Shown piece after piece: positions 7,159 through 30,649 of a stretch of DNA of 55,972 bases. The notes below the pieces were generated by a model that saw only the letters and a list, made by a program, of their open reading frames with translations, was not told the origin of the DNA and did no database searches. The position numbers and the translations under genes are program-made. Position 1 is the first letter of the stretch, and every line of letters begins with the position of its first letter. Source of the DNA: Candidatus Zixiibacteriota bacterium (GTDB taxonomy: Bacteria > UBP14 > UBA6098 > JBKHBT01); the NCBI GenBank assembly GCA_046542255.1, contig JBKHBT010000012.1, forward strand, positions 1-55,972, given 5' to 3'.

Positions 7159-7611
7159 TTGAAAGCGATTGATACAAGATATTTGCGTATAGCAATCGAA
7201 GAGGCCGAGAAGGCTAATCAAAAAGGTGAAGTTCCAGTTGGCGCTGTAATTGTTCACGATGGAGATGTGATTGCTGTTGGTTATAATCTAACCGAAACCA
7301 ATCATGATCCGACAGCACATGCAGAGATAGTTGCCATACGGCGAGCTTGTCAGAAGCTCGAAAGCTGGCGTCTTTTTGATGCGAGCATTTATGTTACCCT
7401 TGAACCATGTCCTATGTGTATTGGGGCAATCATAAATGCTAAGATAAGCCGTCTTGTTTTTGGTGCATATGATGATCGTTATGGTGCTGCAGTTTCGAAA
7501 ATCAATATGCCCGAGCTATTTCCCGAATACGGTAGGTTGCAGGTTATAGGCGGTTTATTGAAGGAAGATTGCCAAAGGCTTCTTGAAAGATTTTTCGCAA
7601 TACGCAGATAG
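7159..7611 (+). CDS. tadA: tRNA-specific adenosine deaminase
   Basis: CDA-fold zinc motifs HAE (HAEIVAIR) and PCPMC. The ~150-aa length is typical of TadA. Confidence 0.85.
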   Translation: MKAIDTRYLRIAIEEAEKANQKGEVPVGAVIVHDGDVIAVGYNLTETNHDPTAHAEIVAIRRACQKLESWRLFDASIYVTLEPCPMCIGAIINAKISRLVFGAYDDRYGAAVSKINMPELFPEYGRLQVIGGLLKEDCQRLLERFFAIRR

Positions 7612-7621
7612 TTATAAATTT

Positions 7622-7707
7622 GGAGAGGTGTCCGAGTTGGCTTAAGGAGCACGATTGGAAATCGTGTATGCAGAGATGTATCGGGGGTTCGAATCCCCCC
7701 CTCTCCG
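7622..7707 (+). tRNA. tRNA-Ser (anticodon GGA), type II with a long variable arm
   Basis: Acceptor stem GGAGAGG/CCTCTCC. Anticodon stem-loop CACGA-TTGGAAA-TCGTG. T-arm GGGGG-TTCGAAT-CCCCC with discriminator G. No CCA is encoded, and an 11-T run follows. Confidence 0.85.
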
Positions 7708-7740
7708 TTTTTTTTTTTTAAAAAATCTGCAAAATTAGAC

Positions 7741-7770
7741 TTGACAAGGGACTCTGGCTTATCCTATAAT
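7741..7770 (+). promoter_or_regulatory. Near-consensus sigma70-type promoter (TTGACA, 18-bp spacer, TATAAT) facing an ORF-free region
   Basis: TTGACA at 7741-7746 and TATAAT at 7765-7770. The -10 context TATCCTATAAT recurs at about 7911-7921. Confidence 0.45.
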
Positions 7771-8437
7771 ATCATTAAGAAGCGTTTGTGACCAAAATGT
7801 GTCTAAACTAGTGAAAAATAATTATTTCCCAGATACTGAAGACAATTTAACCAAAAATTTAGCCCTAAAATCACCAAAATAGCTTCATTCCATAGCCAAT
7901 AGTTTCATGGTTATCCTATAATCTTTATTGGTTTATTTAGTCCCCCCTGAAAAACATCGTAACTCACTGATTTTTATATAGACAAGCTCTAAAAAATTGC
8001 TTATTTCCTACATGTTGAAATTTAATAAATTTTAGCAAAATGGGGGCTTTTTATGCTATCAAAAGAACCAAAATCAGAAGGTTTAGTTTGGGATGGTGAT
8101 GTGGGTTGTTCAGAATCGACTAAAGTAGTTACGCACAAAATCCTAGCCTTTTTTTATTTTTCTTCGGGACAGTACTGATGCCGAAACAGGTTCGCTTTAC
8201 TATGTTCCATTCAATTCCTATCACTTCCTTCCCACAATGCCATTACCAGCTATGCAGTTGTGATTCAGATTTAATTCCCCTTGTATGAGGCGTTGACACT
8301 TTCTTGCAAGCGTCCGGGATGCCGGCTTTTCTGGGCAAACAAAAAGTTGCGAAGGAAACCTCCGCAACTAAAATTGAACCTATCTAAAGATGTGCAAAAA
8401 ACCGTAAATATTGAATCTAATATCCTTTTTTTGCTTT

Positions 8438-9352
8438 TTATTTGATATATGAAACGCGGTCTATGGCTCTTTCCTCGCCATTATCGGCTTCAATGATATA
8501 AACTCCCGAAGAAATGCCATTATCCGGCGTCCATATCCTTTCATACCTTAGGTTCTCGATGAGCTTGCCATCGATATCATAAATTTTGATCATAGCTGAT
8601 GCTGGTGCATCTATGGAAACAGCGCCATTGAAAGGATTGGGAGCTGATGTAATGGTCATATTATCTGGTATATCGATCGTGTTTTCTTTCAGGCCTTCTG
8701 TGCTAAATGATATTAGATAAGAAATATCTTCTGTACCACCACCGCTCATGAAATCGATATTGTATGCATATTCCTTGACAATGCCCACATCTTCGGCTAA
8801 CCAATGACGGAATGAAACATATGTCATCGAATCTTCGAACATCGTTGATGAAACCTCATAATAGGTAGTCATTTCCGTCTTGATGCACTCATATTCGCCT
8901 GCTGGAGCGTTTACTGTCTCAAAGCCTATTATCTCGCCATGAGTTATTATGTATGCATCGACCGGGAAGCCCATGATCTCCATGACTGTATCGACTTCAA
9001 AAACCAACCACTCGTCGCCGATAGAAAATGGATCCGGTAGAACTCTCATCGGAACCTCGAAATCCATGCCCATATCCCCCAGCAATTGCTCAAATAAATA
9101 GATTCCATCGGTTCTAAATTGCATTGTGATAGTATCTGTACTGGTCGTTGTTTCCTGTAAGATGTCAACAGCATCTGCGCCCATATCTGTGTACATATCT
9201 ATCACGGTTTCTGTGCTATTTGTGAAACCATCCGCAGTTGAATCCCGATAAACCCATTCATATCCAAGCCCTACTGGATAAAAATCTCGTGCATCTTCAG
9301 CACATAGGACTATGGCCATAATCACAGAAACCAAAATAATAATTCTTTTCAT
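8438..9352 (-). CDS. Secreted protein with a T9SS-type (Por secretion) C-terminal sorting domain
   Basis: N-terminal signal peptide. The C-terminal ~75 aa (APNPFNGAVSI...IKIYDIDGKLI...GVYIIEA) matches the T9SS CTD pattern. Confidence 0.6.
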   Translation of the reverse strand: MKRIIILVSVIMAIVLCAEDARDFYPVGLGYEWVYRDSTADGFTNSTETVIDMYTDMGADAVDILQETTTSTDTITMQFRTDGIYLFEQLLGDMGMDFEVPMRVLPDPFSIGDEWLVFEVDTVMEIMGFPVDAYIITHGEIIGFETVNAPAGEYECIKTEMTTYYEVSSTMFEDSMTYVSFRHWLAEDVGIVKEYAYNIDFMSGGGTEDISYLISFSTEGLKENTIDIPDNMTITSAPNPFNGAVSIDAPASAMIKIYDIDGKLIENLRYERIWTPDNGISSGVYIIEADNGEERAIDRVSYIK

Positions 9353-17692: not shown

Positions 17693-17842
17693 GTGTTTAG
17701 CTAGATTTCATTTTTTTCTGAAAAAAAAAAGAAAAAAGCTTGCATAATAAATTATACGCCCTATATTAATAATGATAAGTTCTTATTAATGTAGTTTTGT
17801 TTCGGGGTTAGGGCACTGATACTAAATTTTTTAAGAACTTAG

Positions 17843-17872
17843 GGCGGCTTTTATAAAGCCGCCTTTTTTATT
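17843..17872 (+). terminator. Rho-independent terminator
   Basis: Stem GGCGGCTTT/AAAGCCGCC followed by TTTTTTATT. Confidence 0.65.
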
Positions 17873-18111
17873 ATATGGGGCTTTAGTCTGAAGTTCCACA
17901 GCCATTTCAAAAGCTACCCCAATCCACGCAAGGCCTTGCGCTGATTTGGGGGTTCACTTGGCATGACTACATTTCGATTTTCTCGATTAACTCCAGTGCT
18001 TTATGCTGCTTCTTATCTTGCTTGGTGACAGTTTCAAATGTCAGATTCTTGCTTTTTTCATGTATAATTTTGCAAGTGTTTTTCACAATTGTCGATAATG
18101 ATGAAAGAAGT

Positions 18112-18228
18112 GTTTATTTTTTATAGCCATATATTATAGAAAATATATATATTTTATAATATTTTTTGTAATGGTACCACTTATATTTTAGCCAAAAAGT
18201 ATGACAAGACGCAACAGCGCATTGCCTG
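18112..18228 (+). repeat. Copy C (degenerate) of the ~115-bp repeat family
   Basis: TTTATAGCCATATATTATAG...TTTTAGCCAAAAAGTATGACAAGACGCAACAGCGCATTGCCTG aligns with copies A and B. It lies in a convergent intergenic region. Confidence 0.6.
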
Positions 18229-18770
18229 AAGCTGTGATAGGTTTGTTTATCTTCTTCGGAATGCTTTGCTCTGCTGGATTTTTTGGCTTTCGCGCTTATT
18301 ACGGTTTTCAATCTCTGGAATGACCTGTGTTTGTAATAAATTATTTTCATCATAAGAGCTAAAAAGGTATTTCGTTTTTAAATTATCGACAATCGCCCAG
18401 GGCGTGGTCAAAAAGGGGTTATCGAAGATCAAAAAATTCGATTCTATTCGAATTCGAGAAAAAAATATTTGATTCTCCAAGAATCAAACTCATAATAAAT
18501 AATGTCCTATTGTATTCATTAACAACGACTTGCACAGCCCTGCAAAAAGGATAGAAATCGAAGTTCTTTCATGTAAAAATTATTTTGACTGGATAAAACA
18601 GAATCTCAAAATAAATCGTTTTTTAGGGATAAATAGAAATGCAATTGAAACACAGCTCTGGGTTGGAGTTTTCGCATGATCAATTTAAGCTCTTATGAAG
18701 GCAGAAAAGTGATGTGTTTGTTTTGATTCTTCGAGACAGTAGTGAAATGCATAAGAAAAACAATAATAAC

Positions 18771-21700
18771 CTATTTTTGCAAAACTTTCTCCACTACCTC
18801 ACGAAGACATTCCTTAGTATAAGGCTTTACAACTACTTCCTTGAATCCATAATCCGAATAATTTACCAAAACCTCGTCCTCAGCATATCCGCTGGAAACA
18901 ATAACATTTGCATTTTTATCGATTTTTAGTATTTCAGTTATTGTCTCTATTCCGCCTTTTCCACCTGGAATTGTAAGATCCATTATGATAATATCAAAAC
19001 CCTGGCCTTGTTGGTATGCCTTTTGAAAAATCTCGATAGCCTCTTCTCCTGATGCTGCAGTAGCAGTCTCGAAGCCCATGCTGACAAGACGATATTTGGT
19101 AACGCGTCGGACAATTTCTTTATCGTCCATTATCAATGCCCTTTTGCCTTCGAATTTTTTGTGGGGTTTTGGAGTTACTTTGGAATTCTTCTTCTTTTGT
19201 TCTTTTTCTATGGCAGGAATAAGCAGTTCGAAAATCGTACCTTTTCTCGCCGAAGACTTTACCTCGATATAACCCCCATGCTTTTTGATTATGGAATAAA
19301 CCGTTGTCAAGCCAAGCCCGCCTTCAGAATCTTTTGTGCTAAAATAAGGATCGAATATCTTATCGATATGGTTTTCGGAAATACCATGTCCCTCATCTGC
19401 AAATGTTATCTTGATATACTTCCCTGATTGAAATTGGGAGAAATTTTGAACATCGAGTTCAATATTTTCTAAATCTATGTATAAATTACCGCCATCTGGC
19501 ATGGCCTCTTTGGCATTTAATGTTAGATTAGAAAATACCTGCTGAATCTGGCCCTTATCGACATTCGCAATCCAAAGACCATCGGGACAATTATAAACAG
19601 GTTTCACATTGCTACCCGAAAGGTCAAATTGGACGATATCCTTCAGCACCTCGATCAAACGAATATCCTGTTTTACTGGAGCCCCCCCTTTCGAAAATGT
19701 TAGGAGTTGTTTGCTCAGACGCTTTGCCATATCCAATGATGCTTCTGAATCCTGAAGGAATTTCCATGCTGGATGCGATGGCTCGAGATTGTCTTTTACA
19801 ATCGAAAGATTACCAAAAAGGCCCATAAGAATATTATTAAAATCATGAGCGATACCACCTGCCAGAGTTCCGAGACTTTCTAATTTCTGAGTACGAATCC
19901 TTTGATCTTCGAGATTCTTTCTTTCGGTTATATCGCGAACCGTTGCCAATACTTTATCATCCTCGAAAGGAACCATTTGGGCATTGTAAATTTTTTCTTC
20001 TGAACCTTTTAAGAATTTATAGTCGAAAACCCTTTTGTTTTTAGTCTCGATAGTTTTTGCGATGTTTTCTAATATAATTTTCTGCTGTTCTTCTGAAAAA
20101 CCAGCATCCTTGATATTCTTGCCGATTATTTCTTCGGAAGATATAAGCAACTCTTCATCTATCTCGGCTTTGAAATCGATATATGTCCCATAGCTATCGA
20201 GAATAAACATCATCTCTGGCATCGCATCAAGAAGTGCTTGATTTCTATTGTAGGTGATTTCTAATTGCTTCTCCTGTTCCTTTTTTTCGGTAATGTCCCT
20301 AACCATTGAAAGCACCTGCCCTTCGCCACAAGGAACCATTCTTACTTCAAAGAAATGCTGCTTTTCATCTAATATCAGAGAATATTCATAATTTTGATTT
20401 TCCTTGGACTCCAGAGTTTTTATCACTTTCTTTTTGGTTAATTCAGATAGCTTTTTGGGCAAAACCTCATCAATTTTCTTACCAATGAACTCCTTCTCCG
20501 GAACAAGCAGCTTTTCGCTTTGCGGTGCGTGATTATCAATAAATCTGAATTGGTCATCTATTCTAAATAATAAATCGGGAATAGCGGCTAAAGTTGCACT
20601 ATATCTCTTTTCATTTTCACGGATCGCTTCTCGCATCTTGTATTCTTTTGTTACATCTCTAAAAACGAGTACGGTGCCTAAGATATTGCTATTTTTATCT
20701 TTTATGGGAGCTGCTGAATCTGCGATTTGATATTTCTTGCCACTTTTGGAAATAAGGGCAGTATGATTGGCAAGCCCAATAATTTTACCTGTTTGTAATA
20801 CTTTGCCTACCGGATTATCGACTTTTTTCAACGTATTGGAATCTACAATATTAAATACTTCTGTTAATCCTCTTCCAATTGCATCTTCAATCTTCCATTC
20901 AGTTAATTTTTGGGCGATAGGATTCATAGATTCAATATTACCCTTGGTGTCGGTAGTTATAACTGCATCGCCAATAGAATTGAGTGTCGTCTCCAATCGG
21001 TCTCGGCTTTCACTTAGCTGTAATTCGGTTTTTTTACGTTCGGTAATATCATCTATGATAGACAAAATCCTATTATGGCCATCCATCTTCAAGATTTCAG
21101 CAAAGAAAAGTCCGATTAAAATTCCACCGCTTTTCTTTTGTAATTCAACCTCGATACCATCTACTCTGCCCTTTTCTGCTAATTCATTTTTTATTTTTGT
21201 TCTGTTTTCTTGAGAAAGAATCTTCAAGTCAATGGATGTTTTGCCAATTATTTCGGCTCTTTTATAGCCAGTGGTTTTAATAAAATTACTATTAATTTCA
21301 ATATATCTATCTGTATCGATATCCTCGATACACATAAGTAACGGTCCATTATGAAACGCCCTGGAAAACAATTCTTCAGACCTTCTAAGCTCCTTTTCCA
21401 TTTCCTTTCTTTTGCTAATATCTTCAAAAACAGTAACGAAATGCGAGCTATCAGTTGAGAATGCAGAAATGGAAAAATATTTATTAAAAGGTTTGAAATA
21501 GACTTCAAATCGGTAAGGTAGTCCTGTTCGGGCAACTTTAGTGAAGATTTCAAGATAAGGCGGCCTGTCTGTTCCATAGACTTCGGTTGAAAATTTACCA
21601 ACTATATCTTCGGTTCTAAGCTCCAGAATATTTTCATACGCAAGGTTTACATCAGTGATACGATAATCCACTGGATTGCCAAGTTTATCATGGACAATCT

Positions 21701-22226
21701 CGTGGATTGCAACTCCTTCGTTCATATTTTCGTATAGTTTGCGATATTGCTTTTCGCTTTTTTTTATCTTTTCCCGCAAAAGGAAACTATTTGTGCTATC
21801 TCGAAAGACAATCACAACTCCTTTTATTTTTCCAAAACTATCGAATATCGGCGCGCCAGAATCTGAAATATGGTATTTATCACCATTTTTAGAAATTAAA
21901 ATGGCATGATTGGCCATATCGACTACAATACCTTTTTTTAATACTTTTTTTGCAGGAGAATCTATTCGTATGCCGTTTTTAGAATCCACAAGATGCAAAA
22001 TCTTGGATATTTTATGGCCAATAGCATCATCAGCATTCCACCCGGTGAGTCTTTCTGCTTCAGGATTGAGGCCGGTAATAATTTCTTTCGCATCACAAGA
22101 AATGACAGCATCACCCATGGAATTGAGAATCATTCGTAGATTATCGATCTTACTAGATAATGCTTTTATCTTCTCTTTGGCCTGTTGTAAATCGCTAATA
22201 TTCGAATCAATATGACCACTGTCCAT
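18771..22226 (-). CDS. Multi-PAS hybrid sensor histidine kinase with a C-terminal receiver domain
   Basis: Several PAS repeats, HisKA (LAGGIAHDFNNIL), HATPase (GxGLGL) and a receiver domain (RALIMDD...IIMDLTIPG). Confidence 0.85.
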   Translation of the reverse strand: MDSGHIDSNISDLQQAKEKIKALSSKIDNLRMILNSMGDAVISCDAKEIITGLNPEAERLTGWNADDAIGHKISKILHLVDSKNGIRIDSPAKKVLKKGIVVDMANHAILISKNGDKYHISDSGAPIFDSFGKIKGVVIVFRDSTNSFLLREKIKKSEKQYRKLYENMNEGVAIHEIVHDKLGNPVDYRITDVNLAYENILELRTEDIVGKFSTEVYGTDRPPYLEIFTKVARTGLPYRFEVYFKPFNKYFSISAFSTDSSHFVTVFEDISKRKEMEKELRRSEELFSRAFHNGPLLMCIEDIDTDRYIEINSNFIKTTGYKRAEIIGKTSIDLKILSQENRTKIKNELAEKGRVDGIEVELQKKSGGILIGLFFAEILKMDGHNRILSIIDDITERKKTELQLSESRDRLETTLNSIGDAVITTDTKGNIESMNPIAQKLTEWKIEDAIGRGLTEVFNIVDSNTLKKVDNPVGKVLQTGKIIGLANHTALISKSGKKYQIADSAAPIKDKNSNILGTVLVFRDVTKEYKMREAIRENEKRYSATLAAIPDLLFRIDDQFRFIDNHAPQSEKLLVPEKEFIGKKIDEVLPKKLSELTKKKVIKTLESKENQNYEYSLILDEKQHFFEVRMVPCGEGQVLSMVRDITEKKEQEKQLEITYNRNQALLDAMPEMMFILDSYGTYIDFKAEIDEELLISSEEIIGKNIKDAGFSEEQQKIILENIAKTIETKNKRVFDYKFLKGSEEKIYNAQMVPFEDDKVLATVRDITERKNLEDQRIRTQKLESLGTLAGGIAHDFNNILMGLFGNLSIVKDNLEPSHPAWKFLQDSEASLDMAKRLSKQLLTFSKGGAPVKQDIRLIEVLKDIVQFDLSGSNVKPVYNCPDGLWIANVDKGQIQQVFSNLTLNAKEAMPDGGNLYIDLENIELDVQNFSQFQSGKYIKITFADEGHGISENHIDKIFDPYFSTKDSEGGLGLTTVYSIIKKHGGYIEVKSSARKGTIFELLIPAIEKEQKKKNSKVTPKPHKKFEGKRALIMDDKEIVRRVTKYRLVSMGFETATAASGEEAIEIFQKAYQQGQGFDIIIMDLTIPGGKGGIETITEILKIDKNANVIVSSGYAEDEVLVNYSDYGFKEVVVKPYTKECLREVVEKVLQK

Positions 22227-22481
22227 GATTGTCCTAACTTAAGTCTAATTATAAGTTATAGGCTATACCATTTTTTCTTGACACTATTAAAACAATTTTT
22301 TGCTCTTCCTCATTTTAATTATACACAAATTTCCTAAAATGTCAATTTTTTTTACAAATTAATTCATGATAACAAAAATTTTAGAAGGTCTTTGGATACA
22401 ATTGCTCCATCAAAATTTTTCTTTCAATTTAATTCAGATTTTGTATTTTCTATAAAGGTATTTAATATTGAGGATAATTTA

Positions 22482-29401: not shown

Positions 29402-29555
29402 TTACATCGATTCTGTTTTATCGGAATGTAAACTTTTCTATTTGCATAATATTAAGAAACTTATAGCTCTAGAACCTTTGGCCTATAATGGTGATATTCA
29501 GTAACTATATAAACAAGGCTACCGTTCTCGATACATAGCTCCCAGCCTAATACAC

Positions 29556-29667
29556 CGCTACAAAGCTCTACCCCCCACTGCCCTCGCTACAAAGCTCTGC
29601 CCCCCACTGCCCTCGCTACAAAGCTCTGCTCCCCACTGCCCTCGCTACAAAGCTCTGCTTTGTAGCG
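29556..29667. repeat. Tandem array of about 3.9 copies of a GC-rich 29-bp unit (CGCTACAAAGCTCTGCCCCCCACTGCCCT). The last partial unit forms the hairpin CGCTACAAAG-CTCTG-CTTTGTAGCG.
   Basis: Units at 29556-29584, 29585-29613 and 29614-29642, with a partial unit at 29643-29667. Only 2-3 variable positions. No spacers, so this is not a CRISPR array. Confidence 0.8.
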
Positions 29668-29908
29668 CAAGCTTTCCGAAGCTCCGCTTCTATTCTTTAC
29701 TAATACCATAAAGAAGCAGAGCTTCTCAAGGAGGATAAAAATAAAATTTATTTACTTTACATAAATTTTAACACTGAATCTGGGTAATTAAGGCTAAAGC
29801 TCAAATCTGACAATCTCTTAAATCCATTCTCAATCTTATGAAAGTGTTTTGGTAGATATCTTAATATGTCTTGACGAAAGCCGGTGGCGATTTTATTTTA
29901 CAGATGCT

Positions 29909-30649
29909 ATGAAAACGATGATAATAAAAATCTTGATTGTTTCTTTGATTTGTTTTTCTCTATTTGGCGAGAACAATATCGACAAGACGCTTCGAACGGC
30001 TGATCAGATGATTCGAGTCGGCGATTATGAAAAGGCTGAAGACCAGCTTCGAGTAGCACTTCGCAATAATCCCGAAAATGGTGAGATTCTCTGGCGACTT
30101 GGCAAAGCACTCAATCGCAAAGCTATGCGCCTTTCTGGCATGAAAAGACATGATACATTCGAAGAGGCCAGCCAGATTCTGGCAAAAGCCATCAAATATG
30201 ATAGAAAATCTCCAGAACCACATGTCGAGATGGCGAGGACTCTCGGATATATGGGACTTTTCAAACCAGATTGGGACAATTATAATCTTGCAGGCAGGAT
30301 TTCCGAAGAACTCGATTATGCCATAAAACAGGACGCTGAATATGCTGATGCATACTTTGTCTATGGACTATGGAATCGCTTTGTCTGCAAAAGATCTTTA
30401 CTTGTCAGAATGCCTTATGACCTTGGCGAAGCCTGCGATGAATTAGCTCTCGAAAATCTACAAAAAGCAGTTGAATATGATGATGAAAATGCAGAATATA
30501 TGCTGGAGCTTGGAAAACAGTATTTGTATATGGAGCGTTTTGATGAAGCCAGAGATATTTTTAAAAAAACAACCGAATTTAAGAGCAATCTTTTCACAAA
30601 AAGATATATCAAACAGGCAGAAGAACAACTCGAAACTATGGACAAATAG
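29909..30649 (+). CDS. Secreted TPR-like repeat protein
   Basis: Signal peptide MKTMIIKILIVSLICFSLFG and helical repeat content. The ORF is open from 29849. Confidence 0.5.
   Translation: MKTMIIKILIVSLICFSLFGENNIDKTLRTADQMIRVGDYEKAEDQLRVALRNNPENGEILWRLGKALNRKAMRLSGMKRHDTFEEASQILAKAIKYDRKSPEPHVEMARTLGYMGLFKPDWDNYNLAGRISEELDYAIKQDAEYADAYFVYGLWNRFVCKRSLLVRMPYDLGEACDELALENLQKAVEYDDENAEYMLELGKQYLYMERFDEARDIFKKTTEFKSNLFTKRYIKQAEEQLETMDK

What the first reader, a model, noticed from the sequence alone, without database searches (positions are those of the whole stretch)
7712..8437. A 0.7-kb ORF-free region with a near-consensus promoter and a duplicated -10 context: candidate ncRNA locus
No ORF of 60 aa or more on either strand between the tRNA-Ser and the 3' end of a minus-strand gene. 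The region opens with TTGACA-18 bp-TATAAT at 7741-7770 pointing into it. The extended -10 context TATCCTATAAT recurs about 150 bp downstream at about 7911-7921. Downstream it becomes locally GC-richer, with stem-capable segments around 8280-8390 such as GGCGTTGACACTTTCTTGCAAGCGTCC and GTTGCGAAGGAAACCTCCGCAAC. A convergent intergenic region has no reason to carry a strong promoter unless it makes a non-coding product or a tiny peptide.
Basis: seen in the sequence. Interest (0 to 1): 0.5.

Follow-up and report, generated by a model that had tools for sequence, protein, structure and literature searches.

The report
Terminator, dead intron stub, orphan promoter
The gene-free spacer is a patchwork: the neighbouring gene's transcription terminator, a dead 163-base stub of a known mobile ribozyme (class C group II intron) inserted right behind it on the opposite strand, and an AT-rich stretch with a strong-looking promoter whose product, if any, is unknown. 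It is mostly ordinary.

Summary
There is no ORF of 60 aa or more in 7709-8437. A perfect TTGACA-18-TATAAT sits at 7741-7770. TTATCCTATAAT occurs twice (7759-7770 and 7911-7922). The right end is GC-richer and stem-forming.

The stems are not a plus-strand ncRNA. Hairpin 8369-8345 plus a T-run is the intrinsic terminator of the minus-strand 304-aa gene. Directly after it, 8340-8178 (minus strand) is the first ~163 nt of a bacterial class C (IIC) group II intron. More than 100 relatives from plasmids and metagenomes start with the same GTTTGCCC straight after a stem-loop, nearly all a terminator hairpin plus T-run. Homology stops sharply at 8179/8180. No domain V/VI and no reverse-transcriptase remnant exists anywhere in the 56 kb. 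It is a truncated, inert relic. Rfam missed it because of the truncation.

The left 470 nt (30% GC) holds the promoter and a decayed tandem copy of the promoter unit. It shows no significant RNA structure and no homologues. Its two short ORFs (27 and 41 aa) have only marginal coding signal. A lineage-specific short transcript is possible but unsupported. The organism, a Zixibacteria MAG, has no close relatives available for a conservation test.

The parts
7621..7708 (+). tRNA-Ser(GGA), left boundary of the spacer. It is followed directly by T12 then A6 (7709-7726).
   Evidence: ARAGORN; Rfam RF00005 at 55.6 bits; sequence.
7741..7770 (+). P1: a perfect sigma-70 consensus, TTGACA-18 nt-TATAAT, with an A/T-tract (UP-element-like) upstream. 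The predicted transcription start is near 7777.
   Evidence: 2 perfect sites in the window, 0.15 expected; TTGACA sites lie upstream of real genes; local P about 0.001. Transcription itself is inferred, not shown.
7741..7892 (+). Unit 1 of a decayed tandem duplication: promoter plus about 120 nt.
   Evidence: Global alignment of 7730-7900 against 7881-8085 gives 112/154 identical columns (73%), P about 0.006 against shuffles. Local block 7814-7871 against 7993-8041 has P about 0.004. Repeat families D1, D2 and D5.
7893..8085 (+). Unit 2 of the duplication. It carries P2 (TAGCCA-18-TATAAT, 7893-7922, 10/12), with an identical -10 context and a decayed -35.
7799..7882 (+). 27-aa ORF (GTG start, no Shine-Dalgarno), probably not a gene. 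Its frame is broken in unit 2.
   Evidence: Hexamer score 0.26, region-level P about 0.05 against composition-matched shuffles. No Pfam hit. The aligned block in unit 2 has a 4-nt gap; the in-frame stop there comes from my own reading of the sequence.
8053..8178 (+). 41-aa ORF, called by an automatic gene caller in a duplicate contig, probably spurious. It ends at the intron breakpoint, and its C-terminus is read from a T-run.
   Evidence: The only real hit among 1.84 billion representative proteins is itself; three other hits are short-motif matches to repeat proteins. No Pfam hit. Hexamer score has region-level P about 0.14. The upstream GGGGG does not match the AGGAG/AAGG-type ribosome-binding sites found upstream of most other genes in the window.
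8076..8161 (+). Long imperfect hairpin followed by UUUUUUUAUUUUU. It is a weak candidate plus-strand terminator.
   Evidence: Fold energy -18.4 kcal/mol with z -0.67, not significant. The terminator scan did not pick it up.
8178..8340 (-). 3'-truncated relic of a class C (IIC) group II intron: intron nt 1 to about 163 (start of domain I), beginning GTTTGCCC at 8340.
   Evidence: blastn to plasmid introns, with Desulfotalea NC_006139 at 80% over 105 nt, E=1e-15. In the two plasmid hits whose intron is complete in the fetched stretch (Desulfotalea, Marinomonas), the match lies about 570 nt upstream of ltrA on the same strand; both also have RF02001 and RF00029 Rfam hits. In the Vibrio hit ltrA lies about 1.8 kb away and only the D1-D4 models hit. 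Alignment. More than 100 metagenome relatives. Homology ends at 8179/8180 in 104 of the alignments. The full-length intron HMM matches only positions 1-166, window 8340-8178, E=1.6e-15. 35 of 41 consensus base pairs are kept.
8290..8316 (-). Covarying hairpin of intron domain I (GACGCU...AGUGUC).
   Evidence: The consensus fold of 79 relatives plus the window gives the helix at alignment columns 29-34/44-49, with 3-4 or more different pair types per position. The window copy pairs at all 6 positions.
8341..8369 (-). Intrinsic terminator of the 304-aa gene: an 11-bp hairpin (8369-8345) followed by a run of five T (8345-8341, the first of them closing the stem), which is also the target site and 5' exon of the intron.
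   Evidence: Terminator scan on the minus strand: 11 pairs, 6 GC, T-run. Fold z -3.3 on the minus strand. On the plus strand the hairpin is followed by AAAATTG, with no U-run.
8438..9352 (-). 304-aa secreted-protein gene (DUF3108_like plus Por_Secre_tail, probable T9SS cargo), right boundary. Its stop codon lies 68 nt before the terminator.
   Evidence: No homologue in the 5.8-billion-protein search apart from the identical protein.

Best explanation
The spacer is a composite of three things, not one ncRNA gene.

(1) Terminator. The minus-strand 304-aa gene ends in a normal intrinsic terminator: hairpin 8369-8345 followed by a run of five T (8345-8341).

(2) Intron relic. A class C (IIC) group II intron once inserted immediately after that T-run, in the transcribed (minus) orientation. 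This is how the class behaves: it recognises a terminator stem-loop plus a short IBS1 and inserts by reverse splicing and reverse transcription. A later deletion removed everything from about intron nt 164 onward, including the rest of domain I, domains II-VI and the reverse-transcriptase ORF. What remains is a 163-nt stub (8340-8178). It cannot splice or move, and it is transcribed only by terminator read-through. The deletion must reach at least to the intron's 3' end, so 7709-8177 is native flanking DNA.

(3) Left part. These 470 nt (30% GC) contain a perfect sigma-70 promoter (P1) with an A/T-rich upstream tract, and a decayed tandem copy of the same 150-190-nt unit (P2).

My committed reading of P1: it is a genuine promoter that fires toward the convergent gene. 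It makes a short, poorly structured, lineage-specific transcript that either stops near the U-run at 8148-8161 or runs antisense across the intron stub. There is no evidence that this transcript is a conserved or structured RNA.

Shown: the sequence features, the homology, the truncation point, and the absence of structure and homologues. Inferred: the order of events, promoter activity, and transcript ends.
For: - Terminator: 11 bp, 6 GC, T-run on the minus strand only; z -3.3 on the minus strand.
- Intron identity: E=1e-15 to the Desulfotalea plasmid; also Vibrio and Marinomonas; in Desulfotalea and Marinomonas the match lies about 570 nt 5' of an ltrA RT/maturase on the same strand; in the Vibrio locus, ltrA is about 1.8 kb away; RF02001 in all three loci, RF00029 in two; the IEPs are RVT_1 plus GIIM with no endonuclease domain, as expected for class C.
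- Insertion signature: searches show the listed copies starting GTTTGCCC straight after a stem-loop, nearly all a GC-rich hairpin plus T-run. The window reads AGTTGCGGAGGTTTCCTTCGCAACTTTTT|GTTTGCCC.
- Literature: IIC introns insert after intrinsic terminators (PMC1702495; PMC4424553), and most bacterial intron copies are truncated or inactivated (PMC4424553).
- Truncation: 104 alignments end at 8179/8180; a 2255-position intron HMM hits only positions 1-166, with nothing else in 56 kb using --max; no RF00029; no IEP remnant by tblastn.
- Structure retained: (35 of 41 family pairs, some through compensatory changes).
- P1 and the left part: promoter significance and genomic calibration; tandem duplication; no excess folding; no Rfam hit; ORFs unsupported.
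Against: - Nothing contradicts the terminator and intron-relic part.
- For P1, no expression data exist. A 12/12 match can arise by chance (0.15 expected per window), more easily in 30%-GC DNA.
- The order of events (insertion, then deletion) is inferred. 5'-retaining fragments are not what abortive reverse transcription produces, so a separate deletion has to be assumed.
- Absence of conservation could not really be tested. The lineage has no close relatives in any collection searched: the nearest TadA is about 57% identical and the 304-aa neighbour has no homologue.
- The composition-matched coding score of the 27-aa ORF is borderline (P about 0.05).
Confidence: 0.72

Rival explanations
1. 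Plus-strand small RNA gene(s). P1, and formerly P2, drive one or two tandemly duplicated, lineage-specific sRNAs of roughly 110-400 nt that act by base pairing and do not need a stable fold. The terminator and intron stub are simply neighbours.
For: A perfect promoter with an A/T-rich upstream tract. The promoter-bearing unit is duplicated in tandem, an arrangement known for some sRNA families (my own knowledge). The 27-aa ORF is not preserved between the copies, which argues for RNA rather than peptide (plus my reading of the sequence). A U-run at 8148-8161 follows a long hairpin.
Against: No folding signal above shuffles anywhere in 7710-8280 on the plus strand. No canonical intrinsic terminator on the plus strand. 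No Rfam similarity. No copy elsewhere in the window or in any fetched locus. No similarity in phage or plasmid collections. The second copy has lost its -35, which suggests decay rather than maintenance.
Confidence: 0.28
2. Orphaned or accidental promoter. One possibility is that P1 once served a plus-strand gene removed by the same deletion that truncated the intron. The other is that it is a chance consensus in AT-rich DNA. Either way it now makes only pervasive or antisense transcription with no function.
For: The deletion that removed at least 1.7 kb of intron could have extended into flanking DNA (inference). The 41-aa ORF runs exactly up to the breakpoint at 8178/8179, as a decapitated gene start fused to foreign sequence would. 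A distant relative has only about 70 nt between tRNA-Ser and a convergent Por_Secre_tail gene. 0.15 perfect sites are expected per window by chance.
Against: The 41-aa ORF has no homologue as an N-terminus of any protein and lacks the usual AGGAG/AAGG-type ribosome-binding site. The tandem duplication of the unit is not explained. P1 has stayed perfect while its copy decayed.
Confidence: 0.3
3. A missed small-protein gene (27 aa at 7799-7882 or 41 aa at 8053-8178) is the product of the promoter.
For: Both ORFs score above nearly all spurious ORFs found in off-frames of real genes. An automatic gene caller called the 41-aa ORF.
Against: Against composition-matched shuffles the scores are only marginal (P 0.05 and 0.14). 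Neither has a canonical Shine-Dalgarno. No homologues exist for the 41-aa ORF and neither ORF has a Pfam hit. The 27-aa frame is broken in the duplicate unit. The tail of the 41-aa ORF is translated from a T-run, and the ORF stops at the intron junction.
Confidence: 0.07
4. The whole spacer (8340 down to about 7710, minus strand) is a complete ORF-less group II intron that still splices.
For: The length (about 630 nt) is in the range of ORF-less introns. The 5' end and the insertion site are correct.
Against: No domain V/VI by Rfam RF00029 even at E up to 10. A family-specific full-length HMM finds nothing beyond position 166. Homology stops abruptly. The remainder does not fold better than shuffles (z +1.9). 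ORF-less introns are rare in bacteria (PMC4424553).
Confidence: 0.02

Closest known systems
Bacterial class C (IIC) group II introns. The nearest sequenced copy found is on the Desulfotalea psychrophila LSv54 large plasmid (NC_006139, ltrA DP_RS15800). The studied prototype of the class is B.h.I1 of Bacillus halodurans (PMC1702495).
   Same: The first ~163 nt are homologous (68-80% identity, HMM E=1.6e-15). The 5' end GTTTGCCC is the same. The domain I helices are the same, with 35 of 41 pairs kept. The position is identical: immediately after a terminator hairpin plus T-run, on the transcribed strand.
   Different: Only the first ~163 nt are present. The rest of domain I, domains II-VI and the RT/maturase ORF are missing. 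It is a relic, not an intron capable of splicing or mobility. It sits in a Zixibacteria MAG chromosome and is more AT-rich than its relatives.
Truncated or inactivated group II intron copies that litter bacterial genomes (reviewed in PMC4424553).
   Same: A non-functional fragment outside any housekeeping gene, in intergenic DNA.
   Different: It retains the 5' end rather than the 3' end. It therefore cannot be an abortive reverse-transcription product, and a later deletion must be invoked (inference).
Rho-independent (intrinsic) terminators.
   Same: An 11-bp GC-rich hairpin with a 3-nt loop followed by TTTTT, 68 nt after the stop codon of the 304-aa gene.
   Different: Nothing unusual, except that it doubled as an intron target.
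Tandemly duplicated bacterial sRNA genes, such as paired or multi-copy base-pairing sRNAs (from my own knowledge; a resemblance only).
   Same: Two adjacent, similar units of about 150-190 nt, each headed by a -10/-35 promoter-like site.
   Different: There is no terminator, no stable fold, no conservation and no expression evidence. The second promoter is degraded.

Membership tests
Class C (IIC) group II intron | Inserted directly 3' of an intrinsic-terminator stem-loop plus T-run, in the orientation of transcription | tested here: met
   Window minus strand reads hairpin 8369-8345, TTTTT, then GTTTGCCC from 8340. The same junction appears in nearly all of the listed relatives. The rule is stated in PMC1702495 and PMC4424553.
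Class C (IIC) group II intron | Sequence and secondary structure of the 5' part of domain I | tested here: met
   blastn E=1e-15 and up to 2.6e-29 against metagenome copies. HMM positions 1-166 at E=1.6e-15. 35 of 41 consensus pairs form, some through compensatory changes.
Class C (IIC) group II intron | Catalytic domain V and branch-site domain VI (Rfam RF00029) | tested here: not met
   No RF00029 hit at gathering threshold in the window or at E up to 10 in 7600-8500. The family HMM finds nothing beyond position 166 in 56 kb. RF00029 is present in two of the three plasmid relatives.
Class C (IIC) group II intron | Intron-encoded reverse transcriptase/maturase in domain IV | tested here: not met
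   No ORF of 60 aa or more. tblastn with two IEPs of the family gives no significant hit in the window. The relatives' IEPs are RVT_1 plus GIIM.
Class C (IIC) group II intron | Rfam D1-D4 model (RF02001 group-II-D1D4-3) above threshold | tested here: not met
   No hit even at E up to 10. In relatives the model spans intron nt about 87-255, of which the window keeps only about 87-163.
Class C (IIC) group II intron | Self-splicing or retromobility | not testable with these tools
   Expected to be absent, because the catalytic core is missing.
Sigma-70 promoter | -35 and -10 hexamers at 16-18 nt spacing, in a genome that uses such promoters | tested here: met
   12/12 at 7741-7770. TTGACA-type sites lie 30-135 nt upstream of many genes in the window.
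Sigma-70 promoter | Transcription initiates there | not testable with these tools
   No expression data are available.
Bacterial small RNA gene (plus strand) | Defined 3' end (intrinsic terminator) downstream of the promoter | tested here: inconclusive
   The only candidates are a long irregular hairpin plus U-run at 8076-8161 (z -0.67) and a 5-bp stem at 8310-8322, which is the antisense of an intron helix.
Bacterial small RNA gene (plus strand) | Thermodynamic structure above background, or a match to a described family | tested here: not met
   z +1.33 for 7775-8345 on the plus strand. No plus-strand window below z -2.5. No Rfam match.
Bacterial small RNA gene (plus strand) | Conservation in related genomes | tested here: inconclusive
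   No similar DNA in phages, plasmids or any of the other fetched loci. No close relative of the organism exists in the collections, so the test has no power.
Small protein gene | Homologues, a ribosome-binding site and coding statistics | tested here: not met
   No true homologue of the 41-aa ORF. No Pfam hit. No canonical SD. Hexamer score is marginal against composition-matched shuffles.

The most novel reading that the evidence does not exclude
P1, with its decayed twin P2, is the promoter of a lineage-specific, unstructured regulatory RNA. Its long form reads antisense through the retained intron 5' stub and into the 3' end of the secreted-protein gene. On this reading the relic has been co-opted, so that the antisense RNA can pair with the 5' ends of live IIC intron copies, or with the neighbour's mRNA, and dampen them.
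Probability: 0.06. Interest if true: 0.5.

Novelty: new member of a known kind. Interest (0 to 1): 0.2.

Why it matters
Mostly as a clean negative. The part of the region that looked structured is explained by a textbook arrangement: a terminator with a class C group II intron behind it, decayed to a stub.

Two practical lessons follow.

- Rfam scans can miss truncated group II introns whose remaining piece falls largely outside the D1-D4 and domain V/VI models. A simple DNA similarity search against plasmids found this one at once.
- GC-rich stems next to a convergent gene should be tested on both strands before being credited to a new RNA.

The find also documents IIC intron activity in a deep-branching, otherwise orphan Zixibacteria lineage. 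The residual question, what a perfect promoter is doing in the remaining 470 nt, is of modest interest and needs expression data.

Tried and rejected
- Known RNA families: Rfam at gathering threshold on the whole window and at E up to 10 on 7600-8500 gave only the tRNA and noise.
- Large structured RNA on either strand: whole-region z-scores are positive. A sliding-window scan found a signal only at the terminator and intron zone.
- Replication origin: no DnaA boxes in the spacer and no skew switch.
- Repeat or mobile element copied elsewhere in the window: none.
- Phage similarity: none. Viral contigs with the intron pattern: none.
- Synteny and conservation: the genome-contig scan with TadA returned only relatives at 56% identity or less. 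The protein search gave a nearest TadA of about 57%. The 304-aa neighbour has no homologue. The contigs encoding the identical TadA are the same organism at 99.9% or better. Contexts of three TadA relatives showed no comparable spacer.
- 41-aa ORF: an exhaustive HMMER search found only itself plus repeat-protein artefacts.
- Pseudogene remnants: Pfam on seven short ORFs found nothing. tblastn with intron RTs found nothing.
- Complete ORF-less intron: rejected.
- Selenocysteine read-through of the 41-aa ORF's TGA: considered from the sequence alone. I saw no convincing SECIS-like hairpin and there are no homologues, so I dropped it.
- tRNA-Ser as an integration site: no repeat involving the tRNA appeared in the repeat scan of 7600-8500. 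A dedicated search for the tRNA 3' end elsewhere in the window was not run.

Full report
**Observation.** The region between tRNA-Ser(GGA) (7621-7708, plus strand) and the stop codon of a minus-strand 304-aa gene (8438-9352) has no ORF of 60 aa or more. It is the longest ORF-free gap in the window.

The promoter is exactly as described: TTGACA at 7741-7746, 18 nt, TATAAT at 7765-7770. Perfect sites of this kind occur twice in the window against 0.15 expected. The other one sits 92 nt upstream of a 1151-aa gene, and TTGACA-type -35 boxes recur 30-135 nt upstream of many genes. The organism therefore uses canonical sigma-70 promoters. Only 0.1% of dinucleotide shuffles of the spacer reach 12/12.

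The repeated string is the 12-mer TTATCCTATAAT at 7759-7770 and 7911-7922. On its own it is marginal (3-6% of shuffles). GC rises from about 0.30 to about 0.42 toward the right end, and both quoted segments form stems.

**Organism and limits of comparison.** The contig belongs to a MAG labelled Candidatus Zixiibacteriota. The two public contigs that encode the identical TadA are the same organism at 99.9% or better. The nearest TadA anywhere is about 57% identical, and the 304-aa neighbour has no homologue among 5.8 billion proteins. Conservation of the spacer in close relatives, the most useful test for an sRNA, therefore has no power here.

**Right third: a terminator.** The hairpin at 8345-8369 has its T-run on the minus strand (AGTTGCGGAGGTTTCCTTCGCAACT TTTTGTTTGC). 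On the plus strand it is followed by AAAATTG. It lies 68 nt past the stop codon of the 304-aa gene and is that gene's intrinsic terminator. The only folding signal above shuffled controls in the whole spacer is here, and it is stronger on the minus strand (z -3.3).

**Right third: a group II intron stub.** A sensitive blastn of the spacer against plasmids matched window 8179-8345 to plasmids of Desulfotalea (80% over 105 nt, E=1e-15), Vibrio and Marinomonas.

- In the Desulfotalea and Marinomonas records the match lies about 570 nt upstream of, and on the same strand as, an ltrA group II intron reverse transcriptase/maturase gene. In the Vibrio record ltrA lies about 1.8 kb away and the locus carries an additional D1-D4 hit.
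- Rfam finds group-II-D1D4-3 (RF02001) at the matched place in all three loci, and the domain V/VI model (RF00029) in the first two.
- The encoded proteins are RVT_1 plus GIIM with no endonuclease domain.
- All three introns begin GTTTGCCC right after a T-run, and two of them follow an obvious terminator hairpin.
- A pattern from conserved columns retrieved 120 further copies from metagenomes. Nearly every copy listed starts GTTTGCCC directly after a GC-rich hairpin plus T-run.

This is the defining behaviour of class C (IIC) introns, which insert after intrinsic terminators (PMC1702495; PMC4424553). The window shows the same junction: terminator hairpin, TTTTT, then GTTTGCCCAG... from 8340 on the minus strand.

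**The copy is truncated and dead.** Of the blast alignments to relatives, 104 end at 8179 or 8180. A profile HMM built from 48 full-length relatives (2255 positions) matches the window only at positions 1-166, which is 8340-8178 on the minus strand (E=1.6e-15). With all filters off it finds nothing else in the 56 kb. There is no domain V/VI and no trace of the RT by tblastn.

Within the stub, 35 of the 41 base pairs of the family consensus structure still form, several through compensatory changes. Six are broken.

The second stem is the terminator.

Rfam missed the element because RF02001 begins at about intron nt 87 and the stub ends at about nt 163.

Truncated copies are the majority state of bacterial group II introns (PMC4424553). 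Because the 5' end is what survives, I infer a later deletion rather than abortive reverse transcription. The deletion must reach at least the intron's 3' end, so 7709-8177 is native flank.

**Left two-thirds (7709-8177, 30% GC).**

- Promoter context: P1 is preceded by T12/A6 and further A-tracts.
- Tandem duplication: the duplicated -10 context belongs to a longer, decayed tandem duplication. Block 7814-7871 aligns to 7993-8041 (P about 0.004). Units 7730-7900 and 7881-8085 align at 73% over 154 columns (P about 0.006). The start-to-start offset grows from 152 to 194 nt along the unit. In the second unit the -35 has decayed to TAGCCA.
- Structure: neither unit nor the whole stretch folds better than shuffles. 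The only plus-strand 3'-end candidate is a long irregular hairpin followed by a U-run at 8076-8161 (z -0.67).
- Similarity: nothing similar occurs elsewhere in the window, in phages, in plasmids beyond the intron part, or in any of the other fetched loci.

**Short ORFs.** The 41-aa ORF (8053-8178) had been called by an automatic gene finder.

- An exhaustive search of 1.84 billion representatives returned only itself, plus three artefactual matches to repeat proteins.
- It has no Pfam hit.
- It lacks the AGGAG/AAGG-type ribosome-binding site found upstream of most genes in the window.
- Part of it is read from a T-run, and it stops exactly at the intron junction.

The 27-aa ORF (7799-7882) has a GTG start without a Shine-Dalgarno, and its frame is not preserved in the duplicate unit. 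Both ORFs score above spurious ORFs from gene off-frames. Against composition-matched shuffles they are only marginal (region-level P 0.05 and 0.14).

**Other ideas tested.**

- Replication origin: no DnaA boxes, no skew change.
- Complete ORF-less intron: no domain V, abrupt loss of homology, z +1.9.
- Integration scar at the tRNA: no repeat involving the tRNA in the repeat scan.
- Locus conservation: a distant TadA relative carries tadA, tRNA-Ser(CGA) and a convergent Por_Secre_tail gene with only about 70 nt of spacer. This is weak evidence that the long spacer is not a conserved feature of this kind of locus.

**Verdict.** The part of the finding that looked like RNA structure is explained by known elements on the opposite strand: an intrinsic terminator and a 163-nt relic of a class C group II intron (confidence about 0.97 for that part).

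The promoter is real in sequence and probably active. What it makes is unknown. My best estimate is a short, unstructured, lineage-specific transcript of no demonstrated function. The rivals are a genuine tandem sRNA locus (about 0.28), an orphaned or accidental promoter (about 0.30) and a tiny protein (about 0.07).

Interest is low (0.2): a new member of a known kind, plus an unresolved but unremarkable promoter.

Noticed in passing
L119 (58-125 and 2138-2205), L159 (2147-2214 and 4238-4305), L151, L205: Several metagenome contigs carry two copies of the same IIC intron 5' segment on one strand. In L119 and L159 they lie about 2.1 kb apart, which is head-to-tail tandem spacing; in L205 the two copies are about 5.8 kb apart.
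   Followed up: no
L095, L101, L125 (intron 5' junctions listed): In three loci the intron follows a conserved stem-loop...GAGGGATGAGGCG..CGCCTCACCCTACTCGAT, with no T-run. This may be a non-terminator target such as an attC-like site, which the literature reports for a minority of IIC introns.
   Followed up: no
window 22318-22345 (minus strand): This is the only other perfect TTGACA-16-TATAAT in the window, 92 nt upstream of the 1151-aa gene 18771-22226. It was useful as a calibration that consensus promoters are functional in this genome.
   Followed up: partly
window 17693-18770 and 29402-30470: Two other stretches of about 1 kb contain only short ORFs (79 and 87 aa) and several promoter-like sites. 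Rfam at gathering threshold finds nothing there.
   Followed up: no
L083 5001-5671 (ENA ERZ27227320 k141_680285): A distant relative (TadA 56% identical) has the same local layout: tadA, a tRNA-Ser (anticodon CGA), then a convergent Por_Secre_tail gene. Its spacer is only about 70 nt.
   Followed up: partly
window 8438-9352 (minus strand): The 304-aa DUF3108_like/Por_Secre_tail protein has no homologue at E<=1e-5 among 5.8 billion proteins apart from the identical protein. The nearest TadA is about 57% identical. The lineage is unusually isolated in current databases.
   Followed up: partly
window 7709-7726: The tRNA-Ser gene has no encoded CCA. It is followed immediately by T12 then A6, an unusually long homopolymer pair that also forms the upstream A/T tract of promoter P1.
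   Followed up: no
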